The position numbers and the translations under genes are program-made. The notes under the pieces were generated by a model. It ran no database searches. It saw only the letters and a program-made list of their open reading frames with translations, and was not told where the DNA came from. A stretch of DNA of 64,000 bases from an uncultured Clostridia bacterium (GTDB lineage: Bacteria; Bacillota; Clostridia; TANB77; CAG-508), in NCBI GenBank assembly GCA_944391855.1, contig CALXVB010000003.1, positions 1-64,000 on the forward strand, in the 5' to 3' direction. Of the stretch, positions 1,705 through 54,769 are shown piece after piece. Numbering within the stretch: position 1 is the first letter of the stretch; each line of letters begins with the position of its first letter.

Positions 1705-1734
1705 AATTTTTGTCCTCCTTTGAAATCCTATAAA

Positions 1735-1957: not shown

Positions 1958-1995
1958 GATAAAATTTAAGCATAAATTGAGAAGGAGAAAATATT

Positions 1996-2745
1996 ATGAC
2001 AAATGGCGAAAGAATAAAGTATTTAAGAGAAAAAAATGGTTTTACTCAAAAAGATATTGCAACAAGATTAGGAGTAGAGCCTGCAGCAATATCAAAATAT
2101 GAATTAGATATGAGAGAACCAAATATAGAAGCAATAAAAAAGCTAGCCACAATTTTTAATGTTTCAATAGATTATTTACTTGGAAGAACACCAGATGTTT
2201 TTGTAGATGAAACAGATAGAGATACACTTGATATATCTGGTATTAAAGATAAATACAACTTTACAAAAAAGAGAATGGATAAAGTAAAAGAAATCTACAA
2301 AAATGATACTACACTAAGCACAGCCATAAACGAATTATGTTGTGGAGTAGGAAAAACTACTTTTGGAGAAACTATAACAAATACAAATATTTCAATGTTA
2401 GAAATAGAAAGCATATTTAATGATTTTATAAATAGCAAGGATCCTAAGCCACAAATTATGATGAAAGTTAAAGATTTAGAAAATAGTATTATAATTGTTG
2501 AAATTGATTCTTTTGACGATGAAGAAATGCCACTTGATGCAACTGATAGAATTGCTTTATATACTACAAAATTATCACAAAAATATAATGTGCTTGGTTT
2601 AGTAATGACAATTGATAAAGATGAAAATTGTAAAGTTATTGATGCTATATATCAAAAAAATAAAGATACTTATTATACTCAATTACATTTGCCTAGAACA
2701 GTATTAACTGCTGGAGAGTATATTGATATAATGAGTAGATTGTAA
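1996..2745 (+). CDS. XRE-family HTH transcriptional regulator; the C-terminal domain has unknown function
   Basis: N-terminus MTNGERIKYLREKNGFTQKDIATRLGVEPAAISKYELDMREPNIEAIKKLATIFNVSIDYLLGRT is an HTH_3/XRE domain. A ribosome-binding site GGAGAA precedes the ATG. Confidence 0.7.
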   Translation: MTNGERIKYLREKNGFTQKDIATRLGVEPAAISKYELDMREPNIEAIKKLATIFNVSIDYLLGRTPDVFVDETDRDTLDISGIKDKYNFTKKRMDKVKEIYKNDTTLSTAINELCCGVGKTTFGETITNTNISMLEIESIFNDFINSKDPKPQIMMKVKDLENSIIIVEIDSFDDEEMPLDATDRIALYTTKLSQKYNVLGLVMTIDKDENCKVIDAIYQKNKDTYYTQLHLPRTVLTAGEYIDIMSRL

Positions 2746-2807
2746 GAAAATTAATTTAATATGTATATTTTGTTATAAATCTAATAAAATAAGAAGGAGA
2801 AAATATA

Positions 2808-4260
2808 GTGAGAGACGAAAAATATTTAAAAGAATTAGTCGAATATTTAAGAAAATTCCCAAAAGAAACTGACTGGTTAGAATTTAAAACTAATTATTAT
2901 GAACCTCAAATTATAGGTGAATATATAAGTGCATTATCTAATGCAGCAGCATTGAATAATGTTCAATATGGTTATCTAATATTTGGTATAGATGATGATT
3001 CTCATGAAATAGTTGGCACGAATATAGTATTAAAAAACAAGAAAAAAGGAAATGAAGAATTAGAATCATGGATAACTAGATTACTTAATCCTAAAATTAA
3101 TTTTAATTTTTATGATATAGAAATTAATGGTAAGAAAGTAGCTATAATTGAAATTAAAAGAGCAGAATACACAATTACAAAGTTTGAAAGTACAGCTTAT
3201 ATGAGAATAGGAACAAATAAGAAACCACTAAGTGCTTTTGTTGGAAAAGAAAAAGAATTATGGAGGGTAATAAATTCTATGCCTTTTGAAATGTGTATTT
3301 CTATTGGAAATCTAACAAGTACAGAAGTACTACAAAAATTAGAGTATTCTTCATATTTTGAATTATTAGGTATTCCATTACCAGACAATGTTACACGGAA
3401 TATTAAATTATTTACAGGAAGAGGAATTTATAAAAAAGAATGAAAATGGAAAATGGGATATTACTAATTTAGGTGCGATTTTATTTGCAAAAAATCTGAA
3501 TGATTTTAAGAATATTAAAAGAAAAAGTATTAGAGTAATTCAATATGACGGAAAAAATAAATTAAAGACAATTAGAGAAGAAGTAGGAGATAAAGGGTAT
3601 GCAATTATATTTGAAGGAATTATAAAGTATATTAATACAATAATACCTAAAAATGAAATTATAGGAGAAGCATTAAGAAAAGAAGTATCTATGTATCCTG
3701 AATTAGCAATTAGGGAAGCTGTTGCCAATAGTTTAGTACACCAAGATTTTAATATATCAGGAACTGGACCTATGGTAGAAATTTATACAGATAGAATAGA
3801 AATAACAAACCCTGGGAAACCCTTAGTAAAAATTGATAGATTTATTGATAATCCTCCAAAATCAAGAAACGAACAATTAGCTTCTTTTTTAAGAAGAATA
3901 GGTGTATGTGAAGAACGTGGCAGTGGATTTGATAAAATAGTATATTCCACAGAAATATATCAATTACCTGCACCCAAAATTGAAGTTTATGATGAAGATA
4001 CTAAAATAACACTATATGCACATATGGCTTATGAGGATATGAGTAAAGAAGATAAAATAAGAGCTTGCTATATGCATGCATGTTTAAAATACGTTAGCAA
4101 TGAACATTTAACAAATGCATCTTTGAGGAAACGATTTGGAATAACACAAAATTCAGTTGTATCTAAAGTAATAAAAAAAGCATTAGATGATGGAAAAATA
4201 AAACCTTATGATAAAGATACAGCACCTAGATATATGGAATATATTCCTTATTGGGCTTAA
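2808..4260 (+). pseudogene. AlbA_2 (Schlafen-like) plus HATPase_c_4 putative DNA-binding ATPase/regulator, split by a frameshift near 3388-3443
   Basis: ORF 2808-3443 carries an AlbA_2-like N-domain (LEFKTNYYEP...YGYLIFGIDDDSHEIVGT). ORF 3388-4260 carries an HATPase_c_4-like C-domain (LAIREAVANSLVHQDFNISGTGPMVEIYTDRIEITNPG). The two are in different frames and overlap by 56 nt. Intact homologues are single proteins of about 480-500 aa. A one-base indel around 3395-3415 would fuse them. Confidence 0.5.
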
Positions 4261-9441: not shown

Positions 9442-10581
9442 TTATATTTTCTTTTTTAAAGTAGCTTCTATTTCAAAATTTCTAAAATTTCTTTGTATTT
9501 TTAGAGTTACCTTATTTCCTGGTTTTTTTGTATAAATATAGCACCTTAAATCACACATTCTTTCTAAAGGCTTTCCATCTATTGAAAGTATAATGTCTCC
9601 TTGCCTTAAACCAGCCGCTTCTGCCGCTGAATTTTTATTTACACTTTCAATATATATTCCTTCATTAAATCTTAAATTATCATCAATATATCCTAGTACG
9701 TTTTTGTCAAATGCAAATACCCCTAAACTTGCTTCTTCAAATCTACCACTGTTTTTAAAACCCTCTATTACTGCCTTTACTGAATTAATTGGTATTGCAA
9801 AACTTATTCCTTCTGCTGAAGTTATTTTTACCCCATTTATTCCTATTACTTCTCCATTAATATTAATAAGTGGCCCTCCACTATTTCCAGGATTTATTGT
9901 CGCATCTGTTTGAATTAAGTCTTCCATATATGTTTCTTTTTCATCTTCTTCAAACTTAATTGTTCTATTAACTGCACTTATTATTCCAGAAGTTACGCTT
10001 CTTTGAAATTCATATCCTATTGGATTTCCTATAGCATAAACTGTTTCTCCTACTTCTACTTTATCTGAATCTCCTAATGTTGCAGTAGTAAGACCTTTTT
10101 GATTTATTTTTACTATTGACATATCTATATCTGTATTAGACCACACAACCTGTCCGTTATACGTTTTCCCGTCTACTAAAGTCACATAGCATTTACTATA
10201 CTTTTCTCCACTTACATGAGCATTTGTTAAAATATATCCATTTTCTGATACTATTACCCCTGTGCCCAAACCTAAATTTGTTATATTGTCCCACGAAAAT
10301 ATACTACTTCCGGTATTTTCTATTTTAGAAATTCCAACTACAGAATTACTTAAATTAGAAAGCATATCTGTAACTGTCTCATTTTTTTCTTGAGCCTCTT
10401 CTATTGTTTGTGAGGTTTTTTCTATTAGTACATTTTCTTCTGCTAGTTTCTCCTCATTTACTTGTGTAGTTTGATAAATTATGTAAGATAAAATTAGTAT
10501 TAAAAAAACTAAAAGAAATATTAATATTTTTATTAAATTTTCTTTTAGGTTTTTTTTCTTATCTCTTTTTATATAATCCAT
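9442..10581 (-). CDS. htrA: HtrA/DegP-family trypsin-like serine protease with N-terminal TM and C-terminal PDZ domain
   Basis: 379 aa. ILTNAHV, GNSGGPL and PDZ GLRQGDIILSIDGKPL motifs. Confidence 0.8.
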   Translation of the reverse strand: MDYIKRDKKKNLKENLIKILIFLLVFLILILSYIIYQTTQVNEEKLAEENVLIEKTSQTIEEAQEKNETVTDMLSNLSNSVVGISKIENTGSSIFSWDNITNLGLGTGVIVSENGYILTNAHVSGEKYSKCYVTLVDGKTYNGQVVWSNTDIDMSIVKINQKGLTTATLGDSDKVEVGETVYAIGNPIGYEFQRSVTSGIISAVNRTIKFEEDEKETYMEDLIQTDATINPGNSGGPLININGEVIGINGVKITSAEGISFAIPINSVKAVIEGFKNSGRFEEASLGVFAFDKNVLGYIDDNLRFNEGIYIESVNKNSAAEAAGLRQGDIILSIDGKPLERMCDLRCYIYTKKPGNKVTLKIQRNFRNFEIEATLKKKI

Positions 10582-10695: not shown

Positions 10696-12402
10696 TTATT
10701 TTGTCTTTTCAAGTTTTTTTAATTCTACAAATCTTTTTACCTTTTGTGTTGTAGTTTTTTCTAGTGGCTTATCTGTTAGAATAATTTCTTTTATATGTTT
10801 AAAAGTAGGTAATTCTTTATTTATATTTTTTATATCTTCCCATACTAATTTCTCATATTCTTTTTCTGTTTTTTCTCCAAAGTGATCCTTTATATTGTCC
10901 TTGTTATACACAATTTTTGCACAAAGTACAGTGTCTGTTTTACTCTTGTTACGTGCATATACCATGTTTTCTTCTACATATGGAAGTTTATTTATTAAAA
11001 ATTCTAATTCTTGTGGATAAATGTTTTTACCGTTTTTTAATACAATAATATCACTCTTTCTTCCAGTTATATATATAAATCCATCATTATCTATATATCC
11101 ATAGTCCCCTGTGTGAAGCCAGCCATTATCTAATGTTTTTTTAGTTGCCTCTTCATTCTCATAATATCCTAGCATTATGTTAGGGCCTTTTCCTAGTATT
11201 TCTCCTATTCCATTTTTATCTGGATTATCTATTTTTATTTCTACATTTTTAAGTGGTATTCCTATTGAGCCTGCTCTTTTCTTATCAGAAGATTCTGCTG
11301 TAAGTACAGGTGAACTTTCTGTTAAACCATATCCTTGAATTAGTTCTATTCCTAAATCGTTATACCATTCTATAGTTACTTTATCCATAGGCGCTGCACC
11401 ATAAAGTACAACTCTTAAATATTCATCAAATTGTTTTAATACAGGCTTAAATAATTTCTTTCTTACGTCTATTTTACACTTTAGAAGTCCGTGAGAAAGT
11501 TTAGTCATTTTATCTATTAAACCTTTTTTTCCGCTATCGCTAATTGCTTTTTGAATTTTTTTAGCCATTGTTTCAAGTACTAGTGGAACTGCAACAAATA
11601 CGGATACCTTAAATTCTTTTAAATTATCTGCTATATATCTTAATCCTTCACAAAACGCTATTGTTGCACCACAAAATGTACCATATAAAAATGTTATGCT
11701 ACACTCAAAAGTATGGTGTATTGGCAAGAAAGAAAGTAGTGTATCTGTTTCATATATCATAAAATTATATTGATAATTTGAAACATTTTTACAAATATTT
11801 TCTTGTGAAAGCATTACTGCTTTTGGTTCATTAGTTGTGCCTGAAGTAAATAGCATAATGTACATTTCATTTTCATTAAGTTTAATTTCGTCGTATTTTG
11901 CTTTACCTGCCTTTATTACGTCTTCTCCATCTTTTAGCATATTTTCAAATTTTAATACTCCGTCTTTTTCTATATTATCCATGCATATTTTGTATTTTAT
12001 GTTACAGCCTTGGCTAATGGCTTCATCTACTGCATTTTGATATTTTTCTTCATATACTATTGCGTCTACCCCGCTTCTTTTTAAAAGTTTTTCTATTTCT
12101 TTATCTGTTAATGCCTTATCTAATGGTACTATTATTCTTCCAGCTGTTGTTACTCCTAAATATGTTATACACCATTCATACCTATTATTTCCTATAACAG
12201 CTACTCTTTTGACATCTGAAGAAATTACTTTTTCCGCTACTTTTTTTATGTCTCCTACATATTTACTATATGTTACTTCTTCTACTTTTCCATTTCTTTT
12301 ATACTTAAAAGCAATGTTTTCTCCATAGCCTTCATATTTTTTTACTAATTCTCTGAAGTTCGATATCTCTTCATAATACTTGATTTTATCTTTTTTTCTC
12401 AC
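10696..12402 (-). CDS. Long-chain fatty acid--CoA ligase (AMP-binding), divergent from the NRPS gene
   Basis: 568 aa. LFTSGTTNEPKAV and GYGLTES AMP-binding motifs, eukaryote-like LACS/FadD type. Confidence 0.8.
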   Translation of the reverse strand: MRKKDKIKYYEEISNFRELVKKYEGYGENIAFKYKRNGKVEEVTYSKYVGDIKKVAEKVISSDVKRVAVIGNNRYEWCITYLGVTTAGRIIVPLDKALTDKEIEKLLKRSGVDAIVYEEKYQNAVDEAISQGCNIKYKICMDNIEKDGVLKFENMLKDGEDVIKAGKAKYDEIKLNENEMYIMLFTSGTTNEPKAVMLSQENICKNVSNYQYNFMIYETDTLLSFLPIHHTFECSITFLYGTFCGATIAFCEGLRYIADNLKEFKVSVFVAVPLVLETMAKKIQKAISDSGKKGLIDKMTKLSHGLLKCKIDVRKKLFKPVLKQFDEYLRVVLYGAAPMDKVTIEWYNDLGIELIQGYGLTESSPVLTAESSDKKRAGSIGIPLKNVEIKIDNPDKNGIGEILGKGPNIMLGYYENEEATKKTLDNGWLHTGDYGYIDNDGFIYITGRKSDIIVLKNGKNIYPQELEFLINKLPYVEENMVYARNKSKTDTVLCAKIVYNKDNIKDHFGEKTEKEYEKLVWEDIKNINKELPTFKHIKEIILTDKPLEKTTTQKVKRFVELKKLEKTK

Positions 12403-12548
12403 TAAATTTCCTCCTAATTATTGACTTATATTATATGTTAGATATTTTATAACAAATTCACAGTTTTTTCAATATAGCTGTCATTTTATATTGCTTTTTG
12501 TAATAAAAAATTATATAATATCTTCAAATTTATAAAATCAATATTAGG

Positions 12549-15500
12549 GTGAAAAATATGTTAGAAAAAAATGTTTACGGACTTACAGGTCCACAGAAAA
12601 ATATTTGGAATACAGAACTATTTTTTAATAATTCCAACGTTAATAATGTATGTGCTTCAGGTATTCTTCATGAAGCATTGGATTTTGATTTACTAAAGCA
12701 GGCTTTAAATATACTTGTTAAAGAAAACGATAGTTTTAGAGTTCGCATACAAGTAAAAGATAATGTTCCTGTTCAATATTTTAGTGATTTTGTTCCCTTT
12801 GATGTAGACATATTAAATGCAAATAACAAGAAAGACTTTGCAAAAATAGAGCAAGAAACAGTTTCTAAAAAATTTAATATTTTGGATTCTGATTTATTCT
12901 TATTTAAATTAGTCAGATTTCCTGATAGTACAGGTGGAATAATTTTAAATGTTCACCATATTATTTCTGACTCTTGGTCTTTAGGACTTGTTATACAAGA
13001 GATTATTAAAATTTACCATGCTTTAAAAGCAAATATTGATTATGTACCTGATACATTTTCATATATAGAATATATCAATTCTGAAGAGAAATATAAATCA
13101 AGTAAAAGATATCTATCTGACAAAGAATTTTGGTCAGACTATTTAAGTTCACTCCCTGAACCTGTTACAATTCCAGGTTTAGTTACTTCCACCTCTTCTT
13201 CTAGAGGAAATAGACTTTCATATACAATAGATAAAAAAACTTGTAATTTAATAAATGAATATTGTAGAAGTAATAATATTTCTAACTATGTTTTCTTTAT
13301 GTCTATTTTTGCTTTATATATTGCAAATATTTCCGACTCATTAGACTTTATAATAGGTACACCTATATTAAATAGAACTAATTTTAAAGAGAAAAATACC
13401 ATTGGTATGTTTGTAGAAACAGTACCTTTTAGATTTTCTTTAGACATTTCTTCTAGTTTCAAGGAACTTTCTTCTAAAACTAGTCTTAATTTAATGTCTT
13501 TATTAAGACATCAAAAATATTCATATACAGATATGTTAGAAGATTTGAGAAAACAAGATAATAATATTCCTAATTTATATAATATAGCCATTTCGTATCA
13601 AATTACTAAAGCTTTTTCTAGTGATATTGGAGATTATGAAACAAATTGGGCTTTTAATAACAACTCTTTAAATGATATGAATATACATATATATGATATT
13701 AACGATACTGGATCTTTACAAATCAATTATGATTATCTAATTGATAAATATGCAGAAAAAGATATTGAATTTTTACATTTAAGAATATTAAATATTATTA
13801 AACAAGTGCTAAATTCATCTAATAATTTAAAATTAAGCGATATTAAAGTTATTACTGATGAAGAATTTGGCCAATTAAGTAAATTTAACAACTACACATT
13901 GAACTATTCAACAGCTACTGTTAATGAATTAATTTCAGAAGCTGCTGATAAATACCCTAATAATATTGCAGTGGTAGATAATAATAGGAGAATAACATAT
14001 AGTCAACTCGAGAATTATTCTAATATTATTGCTAACATTTTAATAAAGAATAATATTAAAAGCAATGAAATAGTAGGTATATATATGCCTGAGAAAAATA
14101 TAGATTTAATTTGTTCTGCCTTAGGCATTTTAAAAACTGGTAGCGCTTTTTTAGGTATATATAATGAATATCCTTTAGATAGAATTATATATATGCTTAA
14201 GGATAGCAATTCAAAATGTCTTATTGTAGATGACCTAAATAATCCAAATGTTAAAGCTATAAAAACTGCTATTCCTAATATTTTATTGATTGAAACTAAT
14301 TCTTTAGATTTTTCTAAAAAGTTAGATTTTAAAATAAATACTAAAATAGATTTAGACTCAAATGCATATATAATATATACGTCAGGATCTACTGGTAAGC
14401 CTAAAGGAGTATCATTATCTCATAAGAACTTAATAAACTTTGTATATAGCTTTAGAGAGCATCTACAAGGTGTTGATATAACTGATAGATTTATTAGTGT
14501 TACTAATATTTGTTTTGATGTTAGTATGTCCGAAATATTTACACCTTTGTTTTTTGGTGCAAGTCTCTATTTGTATAAAGACTTAAATTATAGTACACCA
14601 AAAGAACTTGCTGAATATATTACAAAGAATGAGATTACATTTTCATATTTTCCACCTGCTCTACTCTCTCATGTATGTAATGAACTTAAAAAATTAGATG
14701 GTGTAAAATTGTGTAAAATGTTAGTCGGCGTTGAGCCAATTAAAGCCGCTACACTTTCTGAATTTTTGAAAATAAATCCTAATATGAGAATTGTAAATGG
14801 TTATGGTCCAACAGAGACAACTATATGCTGTACAATGTATGATTTTGGTAATACTCTTCCTGCTGATTCTATAGTACCTATAGGTATGCCATTGTATAAC
14901 AATCATCTTTATGTTTTTAATAAATTTATGAACTACTTGCCTATTAATTATCCTGGTATTTTGTGGGTAGCTGGTGATAACGTAGGAAATGGATATATAG
15001 GACAAGCAAAAAATACCACTGATACATATAAAGTATTTAATGGCACTAATTTCTATAATACTGGAGATTTAGTAAAATGGGATGAAAACGGTGTTTTACA
15101 TTTTATTGGTAGAAAAGATAACCAGATTAAATTTCATGGTTATAGAATCGATTTAGGTGAAATTGAAGCTGCAATAAAGAAATTTGAAAATGTAAGTAAT
15201 TGCTTTGTCTTGTCAAATAAAACAAATGAAGTGGATAGATTGGTAGCTTTTATAACTTCTCATTCTATAATAAATGAATTTGATATTAGAACATTTATAT
15301 CTAATATCTTGCCACATTATATGATTCCAAGCGAATTTATCTTTTTAGATACTTTCCCATTAACTCCTAATGGAAAGATAGATAAAAAAGCTTTATTAGA
15401 GCTTGCTAATGTTAAATTTAACAGTTCTAAAGATAATGTAAAACCTAGCTCTCCACTAGAAAATACTCTTGCTAATATATTTTCTAGCGTACTTGGTATA

Positions 15501-18500
15501 TCACAAATTAGTGTGAACGATAACTTTTTTGAACTTGGTGGTGATTCACTAAATGCAATTAAATTAATTGGTAAAATAGAAGAAGAATTACACATGAAAA
15601 TATTAATAAAAGATATTTTTAGCTTTCCTACAGTTGCATCAATGGCTAAATATATAGATCAATACTCTTCAAAAAGTGAAAAAAGAACTATTACGCCAAC
15701 TACTAAAGAAGAGTTTTACCCTCTAAGTTTTGCACAAAAAAGAATATATTATACAGTAAAATTAAATGAAAATTCTATTGTATATAACACACCATTTGGA
15801 ATTATCTTTGACAAAATGCCTGATACTTTAAAATTAGAGGCTTGCTTTAATACAATAATAGATACTAATCAAGCATTACGTACATACTTTGATATAGAGA
15901 ATGGAGAAGTTGTACAGAAAGTTAAGGATAAGATAGATTTTAAATTAGATGTTGTAGAAACAGAAAATAAGAGTATTAATGAAATTTTTGATGATTTCGT
16001 ACAACCTTTTGATTTAAATACAGCACCACTATTTAGAGCCAAATTTGTAAAATCAGGAAATATATATATTTTGCTTGTAGACATGCATCATATTATTTGT
16101 GATGGTCAATCAGCTAATATATTAGCAGATAAACTTTGTAAATTATATAATGATACTTCTATAGAAAAAAATGATATTGACTATATTGATTTTGTAGTTT
16201 GGGAAAGAAAAAACTCTCAAACAGAAGAGTTTGAAAAATCAAAAGAGTTTTGGGTAAATAATTTTAAAGGAGAATTACCTGTTTTAAATATGCCTTTACA
16301 AAAAACTAGACCTAAGGTTCAGTCTTTTAGAGGAAATAAAATATATGATAAAATAGAAGATACAGCTAAATTATATGAATTATGTAAGAACCTTAATGTT
16401 ACACCATATATGCTATTACTATCTTTATATTATGTATTATTATATAAATACACCGGTCAAGACGAATTTGTTGTAGGTTCTCCTATTACAGGTAGGGATA
16501 ATATTCAAACTTCTAATATTATTGGTATGTTTGTTAATACTTTACCTTTAAAGGCTACAGTTAATAAAAATACAAGTTTCCATAACTTGTTAAGCCAAGT
16601 AATGAATAATTGTATTAGAGCTTTTGAAAATCAGTTATATCCTTTTGATGAGCTTGTAAAAGAATTAGATATTCCAAGAGATTCTAGTACTACTCCTATA
16701 TTTAGCACAATGTTTACATTCCAAAATACAGGTGTTCCAAGTTTAGAATTAAATGGTTTGAATGTAAAATATTATATTCCTGATAATAAGACTGCTAAAT
16801 TTGATTTTTCGTTGGAGATATCTCCAATAGGTAATGATTTAGACTTAAATTTAGAATATTGTATTGATTTATTTGATAAGGAATTTATGCAAGATTTTCT
16901 AAAACATTATATTAATATTTATAACTATATATTAAATAATGATATGGAAGTTTTAATAAAAGATATACCTATATTATCTAAAGAAGAAGAAAATTCCTTG
17001 ATATATGAATATAATGATACATATATTGAATATCCTCGTGATAAAACAATAATACAGTTATTTGAAAAACAGGTAAAAGAAACTCCAAATAAAACTGCTA
17101 TTATATTTAATAATAAATCTATAACATATAAAGAATTAAATAAAAAAGCTAACCAAATTGCTTATTATTTAAGGGAAAATGGTATTAAACCTAATAATGT
17201 AGTTGGTATAATGGTAAATCGTTCTTTCGAATTAATTGCTTGCATGCTGGGAATTTTGAAGTCAGGCGCTGCATATTTGCCAATAGACCCAACATATCCA
17301 CAAGAAAGGATAAATTATATTATTAAAGATAGTAATGTTAATATATTACTTACATTAGATAACTTGATAAATAATATTAACATAGATTCTAATGCTAAAG
17401 TTTTACCTGTAAATTTTGATACTAGTGCAATCTACAATTTACCTGATGATAATTTAGATACTGTAAATAAACCAGAAGATTTAGCATATTTAATATATAC
17501 TTCTGGTTCTACTGGTAATCCAAAAGGAGTTATGCTTACACATAGAAATGTTAATAATTTTATAGAAGCAACCTGTAAAGAAATAGAATTTGAAAATATA
17601 ATAGTTTCTGTTACAACTTTCTGTTTTGATATATTTGTGTTAGAATCATTACTTCCTTTGCAAAAAGGATTAACAATAGTACTTGCAAATGAAGAAGAAC
17701 AAAACATACCTCAAAGACTAAATGAACTATGTAATGCCAATAACGTACAAATGTTACAGACAACTCCTGCTAGAATGTCTTTGCTCTTAAGTGATAAAGA
17801 TTCTTTAGAATATATCAAAAACTTAAAAGTAATAATGCTTGGAGGAGAACCATTCCCTCAAAAATTACTTGAAGAACTTAAAAGATTAACAGAGGCAAGA
17901 ATATATAATATGTATGGTCCAACAGAAACTACAGTATGGTCTTCTATAAAAGAACTTACAAATACCTCTGAAATAACTATAGGAAGGCCAATGGGTAATA
18001 CCCAATTCTATATTTTAGATAATGATAATAATCTCTTATCTGCCGGTATGGAAGGACATTTATTCATTGGTGGAGATGGTGTAGGTAACGGATATTTACA
18101 TAGAGTAGAATTAACTAAAGAAAAATTTATAAATAACCCATATAGAGAGAATGATATAATATATGATACAGGAGATATGGCAAAATGGAATAATGAAAAA
18201 GAAGCTATTTGTTTAGGAAGATCTGATTTCCAAGTAAAACTTCACGGTCTTAGAATTGAACTTTCTGAAATAGAAAATAGAATTGTACAATTTCCGAATA
18301 TATCCAAAGCAGTTGTTTGTGTAAAAAAGGATAATTTAGAAAGAGATTTCTTATGTGCTTATTTCGTATCTAAAAGTAGAATAAGTACACCTGCCTTGAA
18401 GGACTTTTTAAGTAAATTCTTACCTACTTACATGGTACCAAATAAATTTAAACAATTATCTGATTTCAAATACACACCTAACGGAAAGATAGATAAGAAA

Positions 18501-19994
18501 GCTTTGCCAGAAATTAGATTTCAAACAAAGAAAGATAACATAGAATTACCTAAAACAGCAACAGAAAAAAAATTGTCTAAAATATATGAAGAGCTTTTAA
18601 GTATTTCTCCAATAAGCATTAATGATAATTTCTTCGAAATTGGTGGAGATTCAATGCTTGCATTAAAGTTGCAAATTAAGTTATTAAATGATAATATATA
18701 TATCACCTATGCAGATATTTTTAAATATCCTACAATAAGACAATTAGCAAATAAGCTTGATACTAATATAGAAAATAATAGTATTTCTGTAGAAAATTAC
18801 GATTTTTCTAATATTCATTCACTTATAAAAGTTAATAGTATAGAAAATATCAAAAGTATATCAAAATTAGAAAAAAGAGAAACCGGAAATATTATTCTTA
18901 CTGGTGCTACTGGCTTTTTAGGTGCGCATATATTATCGCATATATTAGATAATACAAATCTAAAAGTTTATTGTTTATTACGACCTGATTTAAGTATAGA
19001 TATAAATACTAAATTATTAAAAAGATTACAATATTATTTTGGTAATAAATATGATAAATTAATGAATATAAGGATATTTGCAATATCTTCAGATATTACT
19101 AGTGAAGGACTTGGCTTAAACATTGATACACTTACCCTATTGAATAAAGAAGCTTCTTGTGTTATAAATAGTGCTGCTATTGTAAAACATTATGGAGATT
19201 ATTCAGATTTTGAAAAGATAAATGTAAATGGAGTAAAAAATTTAATAAATTTCTGTATTAATAATAATAAAGAATTAATACAAATTTCTACAACTAGTGT
19301 GTCTGGAAATACCTTGTTTGATTTAGCTATTGATAATAATAACTTTAAGGAAGATATTGAATTTAATGAAACTAATTTCTACATTGGACAATCTTTGGAA
19401 AATGTATATGTGCGTAGTAAGTTTGAAGCAGAAAAAATTATATTTGAAAATATGTTTCATAATAACCTAAGGGCATTAATATTAAGAATAGGAAATATAA
19501 CTAATAGAAGTACTGATGGTAAATTTCAGCCCAACGCTTCTGAAAATGCATTTTTAAATAGATTAAAAGCATTTTTAGAGTTAAAATGTGTTCCAAACTA
19601 TTTAAAAAACATATATATTGAATTTAGCCCAGTAGATAAAGTAGCAGAAGCTATATATAAAGCAATATGTTACTCAAATAAATTTAATGTTTTTCACATA
19701 TATAATCCAAACCATATATATATGGAAGATTTAGTTCAGTTATTACCTGAAAATAAATTGACTTTTGTAGAAGATGAAGTATTTGATAAGAAATTACATA
19801 ACTTTATGAAAAAGGTTAGCGATACTACTTCTGTTTCTTACTTAATAAATGATTTAAATAAAGACCAACATATAAATTATGATAATTATATAAAAATAAA
19901 AAATGACTTTACTACTTACTTTTTAAATAAATCTAACTTTAGATGGAATAAAATTGATAAAGATTATATTGAAAAACTATTAAAAAACTTTTAA
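12549..19994 (+). CDS. Two-module nonribosomal peptide synthetase, domain order C-A-T-C-A-T-R with a terminal thioester reductase
   Basis: 2481 aa. C1 has HHIISDSWS (nt ~12954). A1 has YTSGSTGKPKG (~14380) and PNGKIDKKAL (~15367). T1 has GGDSL (~15538). C2 has HHIICDGQS (~16085). A2 has YTSGSTGNPKG (~17497) and PNGKIDKKAL (~18478). T2 has GGDSM (~18640). R has GATGFLGAHIL (~18904) and YVRSK (~19405). Confidence 0.9.
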   Translation: MKNMLEKNVYGLTGPQKNIWNTELFFNNSNVNNVCASGILHEALDFDLLKQALNILVKENDSFRVRIQVKDNVPVQYFSDFVPFDVDILNANNKKDFAKIEQETVSKKFNILDSDLFLFKLVRFPDSTGGIILNVHHIISDSWSLGLVIQEIIKIYHALKANIDYVPDTFSYIEYINSEEKYKSSKRYLSDKEFWSDYLSSLPEPVTIPGLVTSTSSSRGNRLSYTIDKKTCNLINEYCRSNNISNYVFFMSIFALYIANISDSLDFIIGTPILNRTNFKEKNTIGMFVETVPFRFSLDISSSFKELSSKTSLNLMSLLRHQKYSYTDMLEDLRKQDNNIPNLYNIAISYQITKAFSSDIGDYETNWAFNNNSLNDMNIHIYDINDTGSLQINYDYLIDKYAEKDIEFLHLRILNIIKQVLNSSNNLKLSDIKVITDEEFGQLSKFNNYTLNYSTATVNELISEAADKYPNNIAVVDNNRRITYSQLENYSNIIANILIKNNIKSNEIVGIYMPEKNIDLICSALGILKTGSAFLGIYNEYPLDRIIYMLKDSNSKCLIVDDLNNPNVKAIKTAIPNILLIETNSLDFSKKLDFKINTKIDLDSNAYIIYTSGSTGKPKGVSLSHKNLINFVYSFREHLQGVDITDRFISVTNICFDVSMSEIFTPLFFGASLYLYKDLNYSTPKELAEYITKNEITFSYFPPALLSHVCNELKKLDGVKLCKMLVGVEPIKAATLSEFLKINPNMRIVNGYGPTETTICCTMYDFGNTLPADSIVPIGMPLYNNHLYVFNKFMNYLPINYPGILWVAGDNVGNGYIGQAKNTTDTYKVFNGTNFYNTGDLVKWDENGVLHFIGRKDNQIKFHGYRIDLGEIEAAIKKFENVSNCFVLSNKTNEVDRLVAFITSHSIINEFDIRTFISNILPHYMIPSEFIFLDTFPLTPNGKIDKKALLELANVKFNSSKDNVKPSSPLENTLANIFSSVLGISQISVNDNFFELGGDSLNAIKLIGKIEEELHMKILIKDIFSFPTVASMAKYIDQYSSKSEKRTITPTTKEEFYPLSFAQKRIYYTVKLNENSIVYNTPFGIIFDKMPDTLKLEACFNTIIDTNQALRTYFDIENGEVVQKVKDKIDFKLDVVETENKSINEIFDDFVQPFDLNTAPLFRAKFVKSGNIYILLVDMHHIICDGQSANILADKLCKLYNDTSIEKNDIDYIDFVVWERKNSQTEEFEKSKEFWVNNFKGELPVLNMPLQKTRPKVQSFRGNKIYDKIEDTAKLYELCKNLNVTPYMLLLSLYYVLLYKYTGQDEFVVGSPITGRDNIQTSNIIGMFVNTLPLKATVNKNTSFHNLLSQVMNNCIRAFENQLYPFDELVKELDIPRDSSTTPIFSTMFTFQNTGVPSLELNGLNVKYYIPDNKTAKFDFSLEISPIGNDLDLNLEYCIDLFDKEFMQDFLKHYINIYNYILNNDMEVLIKDIPILSKEEENSLIYEYNDTYIEYPRDKTIIQLFEKQVKETPNKTAIIFNNKSITYKELNKKANQIAYYLRENGIKPNNVVGIMVNRSFELIACMLGILKSGAAYLPIDPTYPQERINYIIKDSNVNILLTLDNLINNINIDSNAKVLPVNFDTSAIYNLPDDNLDTVNKPEDLAYLIYTSGSTGNPKGVMLTHRNVNNFIEATCKEIEFENIIVSVTTFCFDIFVLESLLPLQKGLTIVLANEEEQNIPQRLNELCNANNVQMLQTTPARMSLLLSDKDSLEYIKNLKVIMLGGEPFPQKLLEELKRLTEARIYNMYGPTETTVWSSIKELTNTSEITIGRPMGNTQFYILDNDNNLLSAGMEGHLFIGGDGVGNGYLHRVELTKEKFINNPYRENDIIYDTGDMAKWNNEKEAICLGRSDFQVKLHGLRIELSEIENRIVQFPNISKAVVCVKKDNLERDFLCAYFVSKSRISTPALKDFLSKFLPTYMVPNKFKQLSDFKYTPNGKIDKKALPEIRFQTKKDNIELPKTATEKKLSKIYEELLSISPISINDNFFEIGGDSMLALKLQIKLLNDNIYITYADIFKYPTIRQLANKLDTNIENNSISVENYDFSNIHSLIKVNSIENIKSISKLEKRETGNIILTGATGFLGAHILSHILDNTNLKVYCLLRPDLSIDINTKLLKRLQYYFGNKYDKLMNIRIFAISSDITSEGLGLNIDTLTLLNKEASCVINSAAIVKHYGDYSDFEKINVNGVKNLINFCINNNKELIQISTTSVSGNTLFDLAIDNNNFKEDIEFNETNFYIGQSLENVYVRSKFEAEKIIFENMFHNNLRALILRIGNITNRSTDGKFQPNASENAFLNRLKAFLELKCVPNYLKNIYIEFSPVDKVAEAIYKAICYSNKFNVFHIYNPNHIYMEDLVQLLPENKLTFVEDEVFDKKLHNFMKKVSDTTSVSYLINDLNKDQHINYDNYIKIKNDFTTYFLNKSNFRWNKIDKDYIEKLLKNF

Positions 19995-20019: not shown

Positions 20020-21822
20020 ATGACCACTTTTTTACTATTATATTTTTCGGTAATAATTATTCTTGTAATAATACTTTTAATCAACAGAACCAAAAATAAC
20101 AATCAGCTAGCAAAAATATATACATGTAGCTTAGTTTGTATATTAATATGGGTTACGGCATTACTGTGTCAAATGACTTTTGCTGAAAGGTATAACATTC
20201 CTCCTATATATTTTGATTATGTAGCATATATAGGTATATGTTTTCTGCCTATTAGTGTACTCTTTACTGGTATATGCTTTTCAAAAACGCATGTTACTTT
20301 TAAGAAAAAGCATCTATTGCTATTTATTGTACCAATCATAACTTTGCTATTACTTTGGACAAATGACTACCATCATTTATTATATGAGCACTATTCTATA
20401 TACTTAAACGACTGCGTTTCCGGTCCATATATGATAATGCATAATATATATTCATACGGTTTGCTCTTGATTGGTGTAATGTATTTATTAATATTTTCTT
20501 TTAGGAACTCAGGATTTTTCTCAAAACAATCAGTACTGATTTTTATTGGAATGCTTATTCCTTTAGTAGTTAATGTTTTGGGAACATTCAAAATTCTACC
20601 TATGACAATATATATAACACCTATGACATTTACTCTAACAATGATATTTACTGCACTTGCAATTTTTAAATTTAACTTTTTGTCCGCAACGCCTATTGCA
20701 CTTCAGCGTATTGTCGACACTATGTCTGATGGATATATAGTTCTAAATACTTATAATGTTGTAGTAGATTTTAACTTATCTTTGTTAAAAATGTTAAACA
20801 CAACTGAAGAGAAAGTTAGAAACAAGGATTTTATAGAGCTTCTTAATTTCACTGAATTTACTAAATCTGAAATTAAGAAAGTGGCTCACTATATAGCCTT
20901 ATCAAAAAGCAATAATAAAACTTATACTATGGATAAAGAAAGCAAAGTAACAGAAAAGTATTTTCATATAGAAATAAGTGGATTAATGTCTGAAAATACT
21001 AATATAGGAACTTTAATACTCCTTAAAGATACGACTCAGCACATGATAGATTTACATACCATACAAAATAGTCAAAATTTACTTATGGAAAGAGAGCGTT
21101 TAGCATCACTTGGACAATTAATCGGTGGTATTGCACATAACTTAAAAACACCTATAATGTCAATTTCAGGTGCAGCTGAAGGTTTAACAGATTTAATTCA
21201 TGAATATGATACTTCTATAGGTGACCCGGAAGTTACAAATGATGATCATCATGCCATTGCAAAAGATATGTCAGAATGGGTTAGTAAAATTAAATCATAT
21301 ACAGAATACATGTCAGACGTAATTACAGCTGTTAAAGGGCAGGCAGTTACTCTTTCTGAAAATGATTCTACTTCTTTTGATATTGACGAATTAGTTAAAA
21401 GAGTAAATATATTGATGAGGCATGAATTAAAAAATGCTTTAGTAACATTAAATACAGAGATGAATATAGACAAAAGTACAACTTTGCATGGTGATATAAC
21501 TAGTCTAGTTCAAGTTATTAACAATATGATTTCTAATAGTATTCAAGCATATAATGGAGAGCCTAATAAAGTAATTGATTTAATAATAAAAAAACATGCT
21601 TCAAATGTAGTTATTTCAGTAAGAGATTATGGAAATGGTCTTCCAGAAGAAGTAAAAGAAAAATTATTTAAAGAAATGATAACAACAAAAGGGAAAAATG
21701 GTACTGGTCTTGGATTATTTATGTCTTACTCTACAATAAGAGCACATTTTAATGGAGATATAACATTTGAAACTAAACAAGGTAAAGGTTCTACATTTAA
21801 TATAGTTATACCTATTAAATAA
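20020..21822 (+). CDS. Sensor histidine kinase with N-terminal 7TM domain
   Basis: 600 aa. Seven hydrophobic helices in the first ~220 aa. H-box LGQLIGGIAHNLKTP. HATPase G-box GTGLGLF. Starts 25 nt after the NRPS stop, with a ribosome-binding site GGAGGA. Confidence 0.8.
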   Translation: MTTFLLLYFSVIIILVIILLINRTKNNNQLAKIYTCSLVCILIWVTALLCQMTFAERYNIPPIYFDYVAYIGICFLPISVLFTGICFSKTHVTFKKKHLLLFIVPIITLLLLWTNDYHHLLYEHYSIYLNDCVSGPYMIMHNIYSYGLLLIGVMYLLIFSFRNSGFFSKQSVLIFIGMLIPLVVNVLGTFKILPMTIYITPMTFTLTMIFTALAIFKFNFLSATPIALQRIVDTMSDGYIVLNTYNVVVDFNLSLLKMLNTTEEKVRNKDFIELLNFTEFTKSEIKKVAHYIALSKSNNKTYTMDKESKVTEKYFHIEISGLMSENTNIGTLILLKDTTQHMIDLHTIQNSQNLLMERERLASLGQLIGGIAHNLKTPIMSISGAAEGLTDLIHEYDTSIGDPEVTNDDHHAIAKDMSEWVSKIKSYTEYMSDVITAVKGQAVTLSENDSTSFDIDELVKRVNILMRHELKNALVTLNTEMNIDKSTTLHGDITSLVQVINNMISNSIQAYNGEPNKVIDLIIKKHASNVVISVRDYGNGLPEEVKEKLFKEMITTKGKNGTGLGLFMSYSTIRAHFNGDITFETKQGKGSTFNIVIPIK

Positions 21823-21991
21823 TATAATTTATATAAAAGAGGTTAGAAAATATAGTAAAAATATATGCTATATTTTCTTTTTTAATTTTATAGTAAAGTT
21901 TAATCTCTTTTAATTTTTTTATAAAAAGTATCTTGATTTTTTGTCAAACTACTAATATAATTAGTTATATTCTGAATAAGAAGGTGATATT

Positions 21992-23047
21992 ATGAGAAAA
22001 AATGAGAATATTGCAAAATCTAATGGATATAAGATTATAGCAGTTGATGATGAAGAAGGAATAGTAGATTCACTTTCTATATTCCTAAAAAGGTCAGGTT
22101 ATCAGTTTACAGGAGTTACCGATCCACTAGAGGCAATAGAAAAAGTAAAAAATGAACACTTTGATTTAATGATTTTGGACTTTATAATGGAACCTATACA
22201 TGGTGATAAGGTTGTAGAAGAAATTCGTAAATTTAATAAAGAATTATACATTTTATTACTTACTGGTCATAAAGATTTAGCCCCACCGCTTGAGACTATT
22301 AGAGAATTAGACATTCAAGGATATTGCGAAAAAAGTGATAAATTTGACCAACTTTTATTACTTATAGAGTCAGGAATTAAATCTATTGAACAAATGAATG
22401 AAATTAAGAGAATAAATGAAGAGCTTTCCGAAACTTATGAAAGATTGGAAAAGGCTTACTTAGATAGTATACAAACACTAAGGTATACAGTTGAAGCAAA
22501 GGATCCATATACAAGAGGTCATTCTGATAGAGTATCTGAGTATTCTGTTTTAATAGGCAAGAAGTTAGGTTTATCAGATGATGATTTAAAAACCTTACGT
22601 GTTGGCGGGTTATTCCATGATATTGGTAAGATTGGAATACCAGACAGTATACTTTTAAAAGAATCAAAATTAACAGATGATGAATATTCAGAAATAAAAA
22701 GTCATCCATCTATTGGTGCACATATTCTTTGTAATGCAGAAGTATTTAAAGATATCATACCAATAGTAAAGCATCACCACGAAAGATATGATGGAAGAGG
22801 ATATCCAGGGCAATTAAAAGGAGAAGATATTCCATATTTTGCAAGAATTGCTGCTGTGGCTGATAGCTTTGATGCGATGACCTCAAAAAGGACTTATAGA
22901 AATTCATTAGATATTTCTATAGTACGTTCTGAAATAGAAAAGAATCTAGGAACTCAATTTGACCCTAAATTAGGCAAAATTTTCATAGATATAATTGATA
23001 ATGAATATGATAAAATAAAGGAAATACAGGAAAAATATCCTTCATAA
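21992..23047 (+). CDS. Response regulator with REC plus HD-GYP domain (c-di-GMP phosphodiesterase type)
   Basis: 351 aa. REC domain (IIAVDDEEG...DLMILD). HD-GYP core HSDRV...GLFHDIGKIGIP...HHERYDGRGYPG. A hairpin-U7 terminator lies at 23053-23078. Confidence 0.85.
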   Translation: MRKNENIAKSNGYKIIAVDDEEGIVDSLSIFLKRSGYQFTGVTDPLEAIEKVKNEHFDLMILDFIMEPIHGDKVVEEIRKFNKELYILLLTGHKDLAPPLETIRELDIQGYCEKSDKFDQLLLLIESGIKSIEQMNEIKRINEELSETYERLEKAYLDSIQTLRYTVEAKDPYTRGHSDRVSEYSVLIGKKLGLSDDDLKTLRVGGLFHDIGKIGIPDSILLKESKLTDDEYSEIKSHPSIGAHILCNAEVFKDIIPIVKHHHERYDGRGYPGQLKGEDIPYFARIAAVADSFDAMTSKRTYRNSLDISIVRSEIEKNLGTQFDPKLGKIFIDIIDNEYDKIKEIQEKYPS

Positions 23048-23052: not shown

Positions 23053-23078
23053 TCCCCGGTTAGCCCGGGGATTTTTTT
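23053..23078 (+). terminator. Rho-independent terminator: CCCCGG-ttagc-CCGGGG followed by T8
   Basis: Stem 23054-23059/23065-23070, followed by ATTTTTTT. Confidence 0.7.
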
Positions 23079-48435: not shown

Positions 48436-48459
48436 AATTTTTCTCCTTATTTTTTATTT

Positions 48460-49782: not shown

Positions 49783-49800
49783 ATTTATTCCTTTTTAGTT

Positions 49801-52819: not shown

Positions 52820-54769
<1,950 letters not shown>

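What the first reader, a model, noticed from the sequence alone, without database searches (positions are those of the whole stretch)
12549..19994. C-A-T-C-A-T-R NRPS with a starter condensation domain and divergent fatty acyl-CoA ligase: predicted (N-acyl) dipeptide aldehyde, pyrazinone-type product
The domain order (condensation, adenylation, thiolation twice, then a terminal NAD(P)H thioester reductase with GATGFLGAHIL and YVRSK) is the architecture known to release dipeptide aldehydes. These cyclise spontaneously to dihydropyrazinones and pyrazinones, as with gut Clostridia protease-inhibitor aldehydes and S. aureus aureusimines. An N-terminal C domain (HHIISDSWS, the G of HHxxxDG replaced by S) placed before the first A domain suggests N-acylation. 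The divergently transcribed FadD-like ligase could supply the acyl-CoA. The A-domain binding-pocket residues differ between modules (after the FD motif: DVSMS in A1, DIFVL in A2), implying two different amino acids.
Basis: partly seen in the sequence, partly recalled or inferred. Interest (0 to 1): 0.72.

Follow-up and report, generated by a model that had tools for sequence, protein, structure and literature searches.

The report
Peptide-aldehyde synthetase wired to a sensor kinase
This is a real two-module peptide-making enzyme of the kind gut Clostridia use to release short peptide aldehydes. Its constant partner is not the neighbouring fatty-acid ligase but a membrane sensor kinase and a c-di-GMP-degrading regulator that swap together with it between strains, as signal-and-receptor pairs do.

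Summary
One ORF (12549/12558..19994, +) encodes C-A-T-C-A-T-R with every quoted motif present. It is a new member of the known reductase-terminated dimodular NRPS kind (gut Clostridia peptide aldehydes, AusA-like), from an uncultured low-GC Clostridia MAG.

Refinements:
- A2 carries a glycine-type code (DILQLGMVWK). A1 (DVSYVVGICK) is unassigned.
- C2 is a canonical LCL domain. C1 is clearly not LCL, is as conserved as C2, and matches acyl/aryl-accepting first C domains best. A starter role is likely but unproven.
- The FadD-like ligase is not a conserved partner: 6 of 52 metagenome loci and 4 of 12 locus types examined individually (11 relatives plus the window).

This pairing holds in 11/11 relatives looked up and in 76 of 77 informative metagenome loci. 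Near-identical genomes (flanks 98-100% nt identity) carry different NRPS modules together with different kinase sensor domains, a pattern like agr/comQXP pherotypes. The most interesting reading, not proven, is that the peptide aldehyde or its derivative is a self-signal sensed by the adjacent kinase.

The parts
10696..12402 (-). FadD-like acyl-CoA ligase (568 aa; GTG start with AGGAGG ribosome-binding site), divergent from the NRPS. An accessory partner, not a conserved one.
   Evidence: Pfam AMP-binding 2e-65 plus AMP-binding_C_3. Best solved relatives are CoA-forming ligases: FadD13, 4CL, MenE. A homologue lies next to the NRPS in only 6 of 52 metagenome loci, plus the window, L005/6, L007/8 and L097.
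12403..12557 (.). Divergent intergenic region between the ligase and the NRPS, holding promoter-like sites for both. No known RNA element.
   Evidence: Promoter-like hexamers at 12421-12448 (+) and 12472-12444 (-). No Rfam match at E<=1. Sequence read.
12558..19994 (+). NRPS gene, C-A-T-C-A-T-R. The ORF opens at GTG 12549; the likely start is ATG 12558.
   Evidence: P0001, 99% identical, is 2478 aa.
12558..13883 (+). C1: N-terminal condensation domain, starter-like (HHIISDSWS).
   Evidence: H, H, D, S, W and G of the motif are invariant in 8 relatives at 40-81% identity. C1 is as conserved as C2. It is not LCL-like. Best NCBIfam match is the first C of PvdL-type synthetases, then MxcG and EntF.
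13911..15428 (+). A1 adenylation domain, specificity code DVSYVVGICK (substrate unassigned; weak hint of Phe-like or hydrophobic).
   Evidence: Code read by column mapping in a family alignment where canonical codes fall in the same columns. Best single-domain solved hit is the Phe-activating TycA. The code was not found in the literature search.
15465..15656 (+). T1 carrier domain (GGDS, serine at aa 1000).
   Evidence: Pfam PP-binding at aa 973-1036. Motif located.
15708..17000 (+). C2: canonical LCL condensation domain (HHIICDGQS).
   Evidence: 298 bits to the TycC PCP-C structure 2JGP. 269 bits to the internal C of the AusA model.
17061..18518 (+). A2 adenylation domain, code DILQLGMVWK (glycine type).
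   Evidence: DILQLGMIWK is a Gly code, and Gly codes vary at positions 299, 322 and 330 (PMC12283262).
18570..18764 (+). T2 carrier domain (GGDS, serine at aa 2035). Boundaries are approximate.
   Evidence: Two PP-binding stretches. Motif located.
18897..19991 (+). Terminal thioester reductase (GATGFLG, ISTTSV, YVRSK).
   Evidence: Pfam NAD_binding_4 8e-44. Solved relatives: 6VTJ NRPS PCP-R at 155 bits and AusA R (4F6C) at 130 bits, with YxxxK aligned.
20020..21822 (+). Sensor histidine kinase: about 7 TM helices (aa 1-216), PAS, HisKA (AHNLKTP), HATPase. Starts 25 nt after the NRPS stop, with an AGGAGG ribosome-binding site.
   Evidence: Pfam HisKA_7TM 3e-38, PAS, HATPase_c. Sequence; hydropathy. 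Directly downstream of an R-terminated NRPS in 11/11 relatives looked up and in 76/77 informative metagenome loci.
21992..23047 (+). Response regulator with REC and HD-GYP domains (HDIGK, HHERYDGRGYP) and no DNA-binding domain. Predicted c-di-GMP phosphodiesterase output.
   Evidence: Pfam Response_reg plus HD_5. NCBIfam NosR-family response regulator c-di-GMP phosphodiesterase at 2e-61, 208 bits, below its curated cut-off of 400. Motifs read.
23053..23071 (+). Strong intrinsic terminator (7-bp stem with 6 GC pairs, then T7) closing the NRPS-kinase-regulator unit.
   Evidence: No comparable terminator was found between the NRPS and the kinase.

Best explanation
The ORF is a functional two-module nonribosomal peptide synthetase.

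Proposed mechanism:
1. A1 loads an unassigned, probably hydrophobic, amino acid X. A2 loads glycine.
2. The canonical LCL domain C2 joins them.
3. The N-terminal C1 most likely caps X with an acyl group from an acyl-CoA. In this genome the divergent FadD-like ligase may supply it; in most relatives it must come from general metabolism.
4. The terminal NAD(P)H reductase releases (acyl-)X-Gly as a C-terminal aldehyde. If the amine is uncapped, this would cyclise to a 3-substituted (dihydro)pyrazinone.

The gene is the first of an operon-like unit with a 7TM-PAS histidine kinase and a REC–HD-GYP regulator. That is the conserved form of the locus in a clade of low-GC gut Clostridia.

Shown: domain anatomy, motifs, A-domain codes, conservation, synteny, and the mosaic co-replacement of NRPS and kinase sensor.

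Inferred: the acyl cap, aldehyde rather than alcohol as the product, co-transcription, and any link between the product and the kinase.
For: - Domains and motifs.
- C2 is LCL: 298 bits to TycC.
- C1 is not LCL and scores best to acyl/aryl-accepting first C domains: PvdL-type 115 bits, MxcG 85, EntF 82, against AusA's internal C at 75.
- C1's catalytic motif is invariant, and C1 is as conserved as C2 across relatives at 41-81% identity.
- A-domain codes are DVSYVVGICK and DILQLGMVWK. The column mapping is validated because canonical Asn, Val and Thr codes appear in the same columns. The Gly code is supported by PMC12283262.
- The reductase is nearest to solved NRPS terminal reductases, including AusA R. 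The whole protein's best NCBIfam match is AusA.
- The kinase starts 25 nt after the NRPS stop with its own ribosome-binding site, and the only strong terminator lies after the regulator.
- NRPS followed by a HisKA_7TM kinase, with a REC–HD regulator on the same contig, was seen in every relative looked up. In L011 the regulator gene is cut off by the contig end.
- Peptide-aldehyde release with cyclisation to pyrazinones, and N-acyl tails that stabilise aldehydes, are established for AusA and the gut family (review PMC8210680; PMC10979478).
Against: - C1 does not clearly group with the solved lipopeptide starter C domains. With the family profile, RzmA-Cs scores 114 and SrfAA-Cs 104, against TycC LCL at 128.
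- The G of HHxxxDG is S throughout the family.
- No acyl carrier protein, phosphopantetheinyl transferase, MbtH-like protein or exporter was seen among the ORFs of at least 150 aa that were scanned, which cover nearly all of the window.
- The ligase is absent from most relatives.
- The A1 substrate is unknown.
- Sequence cannot tell two-electron reduction (aldehyde) from four-electron reduction (alcohol).
- A weak AT-rich hairpin and a promoter-like site lie between the kinase and the regulator, so the regulator may also be transcribed separately.
Confidence: 0.7

Rival explanations
1. Signal-and-receptor reading. The NRPS product, a lipo-dipeptide aldehyde or its derivative, is a secreted self-signal. 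The membrane-embedded 7TM sensor of the adjacent kinase detects it. The kinase phosphorylates the REC–HD-GYP regulator and so changes c-di-GMP levels. NRPS specificity and the kinase sensor diversify together into specificity groups, as in agr or comQXP pherotypes. The gene layout resembles Rpf/DSF (ligase, synthase, multi-TM kinase, HD-GYP regulator).
For: - An R-domain ORF ends 4-95 nt before the kinase start in 73 of 80 metagenome loci, and 323 nt before it in 3 more. Three of the four remaining loci lack upstream sequence.
- Conspecific mosaics: L009 and L050 have flanks at 98-100% nt identity, but the block from mid-C2 to kinase aa ~287 is only 44-66% identical.
- L032 vs L049 and L086 vs L050 show other breakpoints, and the 7TM region is always inside the variable block.
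- With kinase core and regulator at >=97% identity there are up to 4 sensor alleles, each paired with its own NRPS code set.
- Among pairs with 7TM identity >=95%, 24 have identical codes and 9 differ only by I/V at one code position.
- Across backgrounds, L050 vs L052/53/56 share the same codes with 7TM at 0.84-0.86 while the kinase core is only 0.64.
- Partial Mantel tests on 34 dereplicated loci: 7TM~R beta 0.51, 7TM~C1 beta 0.45, both p=0.001. Kinase core and regulator do not track the NRPS.
- The regulator has no DNA-binding domain, so it cannot be a simple transcriptional regulator of the NRPS.
- Pyrazinones derived from a peptide-aldehyde pathway act as autoinducers in Klebsiella oxytoca (PMC11480411).
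Against: - Physical linkage alone could produce the co-replacement. The fast-evolving sensor lies between the NRPS and the next well-conserved recombination anchor, the kinase core.
- Identical 10-residue codes also occur with dissimilar sensors, at 0.53-0.57 (L042/L050, L028/L086).
- All loci come from one family-level clade (Tex 70-85% identical), so the synteny counts are not independent.
- In the window's own lineage no alternative alleles were sampled.
- No exporter gene is present.
- Nothing was tested experimentally.
Confidence: 0.4
2. Free dipeptide aldehyde giving a pyrazinone. C1 is catalytically idle or only structural. The enzyme releases unacylated X-Gly-H, which cyclises and oxidises to a 3-substituted pyrazin-2(1H)-one, as with aureusimines and most products reported for the gut NRPS family.
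For: - The whole-protein best match is AusA.
- Published work describes C-A-T-C-A-T-R enzymes as the canonical pyrazinone makers (PMC10979478).
- There is no dedicated acyl donor in most relatives.
- C1 is not clearly in the starter clade.
Against: - C1 keeps an invariant HHxxxD motif and is as conserved as the working C2 over relatives down to ~40% identity, including trimodular variants. That is hard to explain for an idle domain.
- AusA itself has no N-terminal C; the match begins at aa 721 of the query.
Confidence: 0.25
3. Protease-inhibitor reading. The released peptide aldehyde acts mainly as a covalent inhibitor of host or competitor proteases, or modulates the neighbouring HtrA protease. 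The two-component system is merely a syntenic neighbour.
For: - Gut-family dipeptide aldehydes inhibit host proteases (Guo et al. 2017 as summarised in PMC8210680, and PMC10979478).
- HtrA lies directly upstream of the NRPS in 28 of 52 metagenome loci and in most relatives looked up.
Against: - From general protease knowledge, not tested here: a C-terminal glycinal offers little side chain for P1 recognition.
- This reading does not explain why the kinase sensor is replaced together with NRPS modules.
- HtrA adjacency may be simple synteny, and it is lost in L009/L010.
Confidence: 0.25

Closest known systems
Gut Clostridia NRPS family that makes dipeptide aldehydes, dihydropyrazinones and pyrazinones (Guo et al., Cell 2017); ruminopeptin rup pathway of Ruminococcus bromii (Schneider & Balskus 2018)
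   Same: C-A-T-C-A-T-R architecture, gut Clostridia origin, reductive release, and an N-acyl tail in some members. Sources: reviews PMC8210680, PMC10979478 and PMC12327764. The two primary papers were not held in the library.
   Different: - The host is an uncultured lineage with ~26% GC.
- The last module is glycine-type.
- Here the NRPS is invariably followed by a 7TM kinase and an HD-GYP regulator and forms a swappable cassette with the kinase sensor. I found no mention of this in the searchable literature.
- Sequence relatedness to the characterised clusters could not be measured.
AusA (aureusimine synthetase, Staphylococcus aureus), NCBIfam NF047350
   Same: Best-scoring curated model (1520 bits, query aa 721-2476). 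Shares the A-T-C-A-T-R core, and the solved AusA R domain is a close relative (130 bits).
   Different: The score is far below the equivalog cut-off of 2500. AusA has no N-terminal C domain, has Val and Tyr/Phe codes rather than X and Gly, and has no adjacent kinase.
Terminal reduction of glycine in linear gramicidin synthesis (LgrD reductase domain plus LgrE)
   Same: A glycine-loaded final module followed by a reductase gives a C-terminal glycinal. This comparison rests on my own knowledge of the pathway.
   Different: That system builds a 15-mer with N-formylation, and a second enzyme reduces the aldehyde to ethanolamine. No LgrE-like reductase was seen near this locus.
Rpf/DSF signalling of Xanthomonas (RpfB ligase, RpfF synthase, RpfC multi-TM kinase, RpfG REC–HD-GYP). 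Also agrBDCA and comQXPA pherotype loci.
   Same: - Gene logic: a signal synthase next to a multi-TM sensor kinase and a REC–HD-GYP regulator, with a FadD-type ligase alongside.
- A hypervariable block covering the synthase and the kinase sensor, flanked by a conserved kinase core and regulator.

The comparison itself rests on my knowledge of those systems.
   Different: The synthase here is an NRPS, not an enoyl-CoA hydratase or a peptide-processing enzyme. There is no homology to RpfF, AgrB or ComQ. Signalling is untested. The kinase is not a hybrid kinase like RpfC.

Membership tests
Reductase-terminated dimodular NRPS (peptide aldehyde / pyrazinone type) | Domain order (C-)A-T-C-A-T-R in one polypeptide | tested here: met
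   Pfam domains and their order; core motifs.
Reductase-terminated dimodular NRPS (peptide aldehyde / pyrazinone type) | Terminal SDR-type thioester reductase with a GxxGxxG nucleotide motif and a Thr/Tyr/Lys triad | tested here: met
   GATGFLG, ISTTSV and YVRSK are present. YxxxK aligns with 6VTJ. AusA R scores 130 bits.
Reductase-terminated dimodular NRPS (peptide aldehyde / pyrazinone type) | Carrier domains with the phosphopantetheine-attachment serine | tested here: met
   GGDS in T1 (aa 997-1000) and T2 (aa 2032-2035).
Reductase-terminated dimodular NRPS (peptide aldehyde / pyrazinone type) | The product is a dipeptide aldehyde or its cyclised pyrazinone | not testable with these tools
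   Needs expression and LC-MS.
AusA equivalog (NCBIfam NF047350) | Whole-protein score at or above the curated cut-off (2500 bits) | tested here: not met
   1520 bits, covering only aa 721-2476.
Starter (acyl-accepting) condensation domain | C domain at the N-terminus of the first module with no upstream carrier domain | tested here: met
   C1 begins at residue ~4. No other carrier or NRPS gene was found among the scanned ORFs of at least 150 aa, which cover nearly all of the window.
Starter (acyl-accepting) condensation domain | Intact catalytic HHxxxD motif that is conserved in relatives | tested here: met
   HHIISDSWS. H, H, D, S, W and G are invariant in 8 relatives, and the G of HHxxxDG is S throughout.
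Starter (acyl-accepting) condensation domain | Groups with known starter C domains rather than with LCL or DCL domains | tested here: inconclusive
   C1 is not LCL-like (63-84 bits to any solved C domain, against 298 for C2 to TycC). Best NCBIfam stretches are acyl/aryl-accepting first C domains. With the family profile, however, TycC LCL (128) scores slightly above RzmA-Cs (114) and SrfAA-Cs (104). No proper phylogeny with reference sets was possible.
Starter (acyl-accepting) condensation domain | Transfers an acyl group from acyl-CoA or acyl-ACP to the first amino acid | not testable with these tools
   Needs an in-vitro assay.
Glycine-activating adenylation domain | Ten-residue specificity code of the DILQLGxxWK type | tested here: met
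   DILQLGMVWK, against DILQLGMIWK for Gly, with known variation at positions 299, 322 and 330 (PMC12283262).
HD-GYP response regulator (RpfG type) | REC domain followed by an HD domain carrying the HD and HHExxDGxGYP motifs | tested here: met
   HDIGK and HHERYDGRGYP. Pfam Response_reg plus HD_5. The NCBIfam c-di-GMP phosphodiesterase response-regulator model scores 208 bits, below its cut-off of 400.
Pherotype-type signalling cassette (agr / comQXP-like) | Signal-synthesis gene adjacent to, and co-oriented with, the sensor kinase | tested here: met
   25-nt gap in the window. 76 of 77 informative metagenome loci.
Pherotype-type signalling cassette (agr / comQXP-like) | Within-species polymorphism in which the synthase and the kinase sensor vary together while the kinase core and regulator stay conserved | tested here: met
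   Seen in relatives, not in the window's own lineage. Linkage alone could give the same pattern.
Pherotype-type signalling cassette (agr / comQXP-like) | The kinase responds specifically to the cognate product | not testable with these tools
   Needs genetics or biochemistry.

The most novel reading that the evidence does not exclude
A clade of uncultured low-GC gut Clostridia may use NRPS-made short (lipo)peptide aldehydes, or their cyclised derivatives, as cell-cell signals. Each signal would be read by the 7TM sensor of the kinase encoded immediately downstream and converted into c-di-GMP turnover by a REC–HD-GYP regulator. NRPS modules and the kinase sensor are exchanged together between conspecific strains, which would create specificity groups (pherotypes). 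That would be a new chemical class of Gram-positive autoinducer. It would also give a bacterial-physiology role to the gut peptide-aldehyde NRPS family, so far discussed mainly as a source of host-protease inhibitors.
Probability: 0.4. Interest if true: 0.85.

Novelty: new variant of a known kind. Interest (0 to 1): 0.6.

Why it matters
Reductase-terminated NRPSs are among the commonest biosynthetic genes of gut Clostridia, yet what their products do for the bacteria is unsettled. This locus shows the synthetase fused into one unit with a membrane sensor kinase and a c-di-GMP phosphodiesterase regulator. Synthetase modules and the kinase's sensor are replaced together between near-identical genomes.

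That turns a vague question about the purpose of these aldehydes into a direct experiment: does the product activate the neighbouring kinase, and only the matching allele? It also warns that nearby-looking 'helper' genes such as the ligase can be lineage-specific additions, while the real partners are regulatory genes that cluster-mining tools usually ignore.

Tried and rejected
1. Reading the primary papers. Guo et al. 2017 (tried by DOI and as PMC5302092) was not held, and no PMC id was available for Schneider & Balskus 2018. I relied on reviews.
2. Getting an explicit residue-by-residue alignment to GrsA PheA (1AMU) from the PDB search. Five LgrA entries filled the alignment slots. Codes were instead taken by motif anchoring and family-alignment columns. 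A first regex-only extraction was wrong and was discarded.
3. Classifying C1 by solved structures, with the single sequence and with a family profile. The result was equidistant and therefore inconclusive.
4. Looking for a riboswitch or other RNA element upstream of the NRPS. None was found.
5. A first small test of covariation between kinase sensor and product, using 9 loci, showed nothing. Only the 80-locus set revealed the mosaic.
6. Literature searches for the A1 code and for HisKA_7TM or HD-GYP linked to NRPSs returned nothing relevant.
7. The genome-contig scan returned only the source MAG and one unrelated fragment, so the organism is known only as 'uncultured Clostridia bacterium'.
8. 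I considered and rejected the idea that the split HtrA and DAO genes in L003 mean an alternative genetic code. The 2477-aa NRPS on the same contig is intact.
Full report
**Observation.** The window has ~26% GC. It is 99% identical over the NRPS to contig CALXWW010000001.1 of an uncultured Clostridia MAG. ORF 12549..19994 (+) encodes 2481 aa. Pfam finds Condensation, AMP-binding, PP-binding, Condensation, AMP-binding, PP-binding and NAD_binding_4 in that order, with E-values from 1e-26 to 3e-175. The likely start is ATG 12558, behind an AGGGTG ribosome-binding site. This agrees with the 2478-aa, 99%-identical homologue P0001. The divergent 568-aa AMP-binding ligase sits at 10696..12402 (-).

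**Adenylation domains.** I took the ten specificity positions by motif anchoring. I then checked them by aligning about 270 A-domain segments from 120 homologues. Both A domains of the query map to the same columns. Those columns also spell canonical codes in other proteins, for example DLTKLGEVGK, DAFWIGGTFK and DFWNFGMVHK, which validates the mapping.
- A2 reads DILQLGMVWK. DILQLGMIWK is a glycine code, and glycine codes vary at positions 299, 322 and 330 (PMC12283262).
- A1 reads DVSYVVGICK. I could not match it to anything in the literature.
- The best single-domain solved hit for A1 is the Phe-activating TycA. The '-ICK' ending is shared with the PheA code as I recall it. This is only a weak hint.

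**Condensation domains.** C2 scores 298 bits to the TycC LCL structure and 269 bits to the internal C of the AusA model, so it is an ordinary peptide-bond-forming C. C1 is different in four respects:
- It scores no more than 84 bits to any single solved C domain.
- With a profile of eight relatives it sits about equally far from TycC LCL (128 bits), RzmA-Cs (114) and SrfAA-Cs (104).
- Against NCBIfam, C1 matches best the first C of PvdL-type synthetases (115 bits). By my knowledge that domain takes an acyl donor. Next come the aryl-capping C domains of MxcG (85) and EntF (82), ahead of AusA's internal C (75).
- Its HHxxxD(S)W motif is invariant in relatives down to 40% identity. The domain is as conserved as C2.

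C1 is therefore a working, non-LCL, N-terminal C domain. An acyl-capping role is the best reading, but clade membership is inconclusive.

**Reductase.** The GATGFLG, ISTTSV and YVRSK motifs are present. The best solved relatives are an NRPS PCP-R didomain (6VTJ, 155 bits) and the AusA R domain (130 bits). Sequence cannot tell aldehyde release from alcohol release.

**The ligase.** It is a generic CoA-forming ANL ligase; the best solved hits are FadD13, 4CL and MenE. Its distribution among relatives is patchy:
- Present in the window, next to the 69% relative (L005/6), three genes away from the 68% relative (L007/8), and in L097.
- Absent next to the 80% relative and from seven other relatives.
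- In 52 metagenome loci with enough upstream sequence, a homologue is present in 6. Two of these are divergent, as here. Four (one lineage) lie on the same strand and end ~15 nt before the NRPS start.

It is an occasional partner. The two different adjacent arrangements do hint at a real functional link where it occurs.

**What is always there.**
- The NRPS stop is followed after 25 nt by an AGGAGG site and a 600-aa kinase.
- The kinase has about seven TM helices, a PAS domain and a kinase core.
- Next comes a REC–HD-GYP regulator (HDIGK, HHERYDGRGYP) without a DNA-binding domain.
- The only strong terminator in the region lies just after the regulator, at 23053-23071.
- All eleven relatives I looked up have the kinase directly after the NRPS and the regulator on the same contig, usually next to the kinase; in L011 the regulator gene is cut off by the contig end. 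They range from 37 to 80% identity and include trimodular versions.

Searching metagenomes with the kinase gave 455 relatives, of which the best 80 were kept. In 76 of them an R-domain ORF ends 4-95 nt before the kinase start (323 nt in three). Three others have no upstream sequence. One, L063, has the kinase without an NRPS. Tex next door is 70-85% identical across loci. This is therefore one family-level clade, and the counts are not independent.

**Mosaic structure.** The A-domain codes upstream of these kinases are very diverse. Contigs whose flanks are 98-100% identical at the DNA level differ sharply inside:
- L009 vs L050: only 44-66% identity from the middle of C2 to residue ~287 of the kinase.
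- L032 vs L049: the whole NRPS plus the first ~270 kinase residues are replaced.
- L086 vs L050: A2 is shared, but the A1 side and the T2-R-7TM block differ.

Further tests gave these results:
- Grouping loci by kinase core and regulator (>=97% identity) gives up to four sensor alleles per background, each with its own NRPS code set.
- Among pairs with >=95% identical 7TM regions, the codes are identical (24 pairs) or differ only by I/V at one position (9 pairs).
- Some cassettes are shared across backgrounds: 7TM at 0.84-0.86 while the kinase core is 0.64.
- In 34 dereplicated loci, sensor similarity tracks NRPS similarity after controlling for kinase core and regulator (beta 0.45-0.51, p=0.001). 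The kinase core and regulator do not track the NRPS.

Counter-points:
- Identical codes also occur with dissimilar sensors.
- Physical linkage to the next conserved recombination anchor could produce the same picture.

**Interpretation.** The base reading is a two-module NRPS that releases (probably N-capped) X-Gly reductively. It is well supported and ordinary for its kind. The gut family and AusA are the closest known systems, but the AusA equivalog threshold is not met.

The new element is the obligatory, co-varying kinase and HD-GYP partner. The layout resembles Rpf/DSF, and the polymorphism resembles agr/comQXP pherotypes; both comparisons come from my own knowledge. Pyrazinones derived from a peptide-aldehyde pathway act as autoinducers in Klebsiella oxytoca (PMC11480411). 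I found no paper linking these NRPSs to a two-component system. I put the signal-and-receptor reading at about 0.4.

**Verdict.** The finding is real. I file it as a new variant of a known kind. Interest is 0.6, driven by the kinase coupling rather than by the NRPS itself.

Noticed in passing
window 9442-10581 (-): An HtrA-type serine protease (Trypsin_2 plus PDZ) lies upstream of the NRPS here, beyond the ligase. It lies directly upstream in 28 of 52 metagenome loci and in most relatives looked up. Given that peptide aldehydes inhibit proteases, the adjacency may or may not be meaningful.
   Followed up: partly
window 52820-63692: This is the chromosomal origin region. It holds dnaA (58243-59583, -), dnaN, recF and gyrB on the minus strand, and yidC and mnmE on the plus strand. 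The GC skew changes sign near 60 kb. The NRPS locus therefore lies about 40-47 kb from oriC.
   Followed up: partly
window 47716-52399: A stretch of extremely low GC (15-20%) sits between gyrA and gyrB. It carries a TraG-type P-loop ATPase, a ParA/CbiA-like ATPase and two ORFs with no Pfam match. It looks like an inserted mobile or defence element splitting the usual gyrB-gyrA pair.
   Followed up: no
window 496-4260: A cluster that looks mobile or phage-derived: a phage replisome-organiser N-terminal domain protein, an HTH regulator, a Schlafen/AlbA_2 protein and a HATPase_c_4 protein.
   Followed up: no
L003 6202-7140 and 8624-9764 (also L004): In the 80%-identical relative, the HtrA gene and the DAO-Rieske oxidoreductase gene are each split into two ORFs, and the ligase is missing, while the NRPS is intact. 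This could be local gene decay or assembly error.
   Followed up: no
L007 5399-8602 (also L008): In the 68% relative, three genes are inserted between the ligase and the NRPS: a BNR-repeat protein, a RelA_SpoT-like small alarmone synthetase (toxSAS-like) and a SocA_Panacea antitoxin-like protein.
   Followed up: no
L014 16613-20921: In the 41% relative, a conjugation-type insert (TraG/T4SS coupling protein, DnaJ-like protein, NT5C) separates the kinase from its HD-GYP regulator, yet both are retained.
   Followed up: no
L063 1-1059: The only informative metagenome locus where the 7TM kinase has no R-domain NRPS in the ~1 kb upstream. That region has no long ORF, so it may be a deletion derivative.
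   Followed up: partly
window 21847-21961: An AT-rich hairpin followed by a T-run sits just after the kinase stop, and a promoter-like TTGATT-17-TATAAT lies before the regulator gene. The regulator may therefore also have its own transcript.
   Followed up: no
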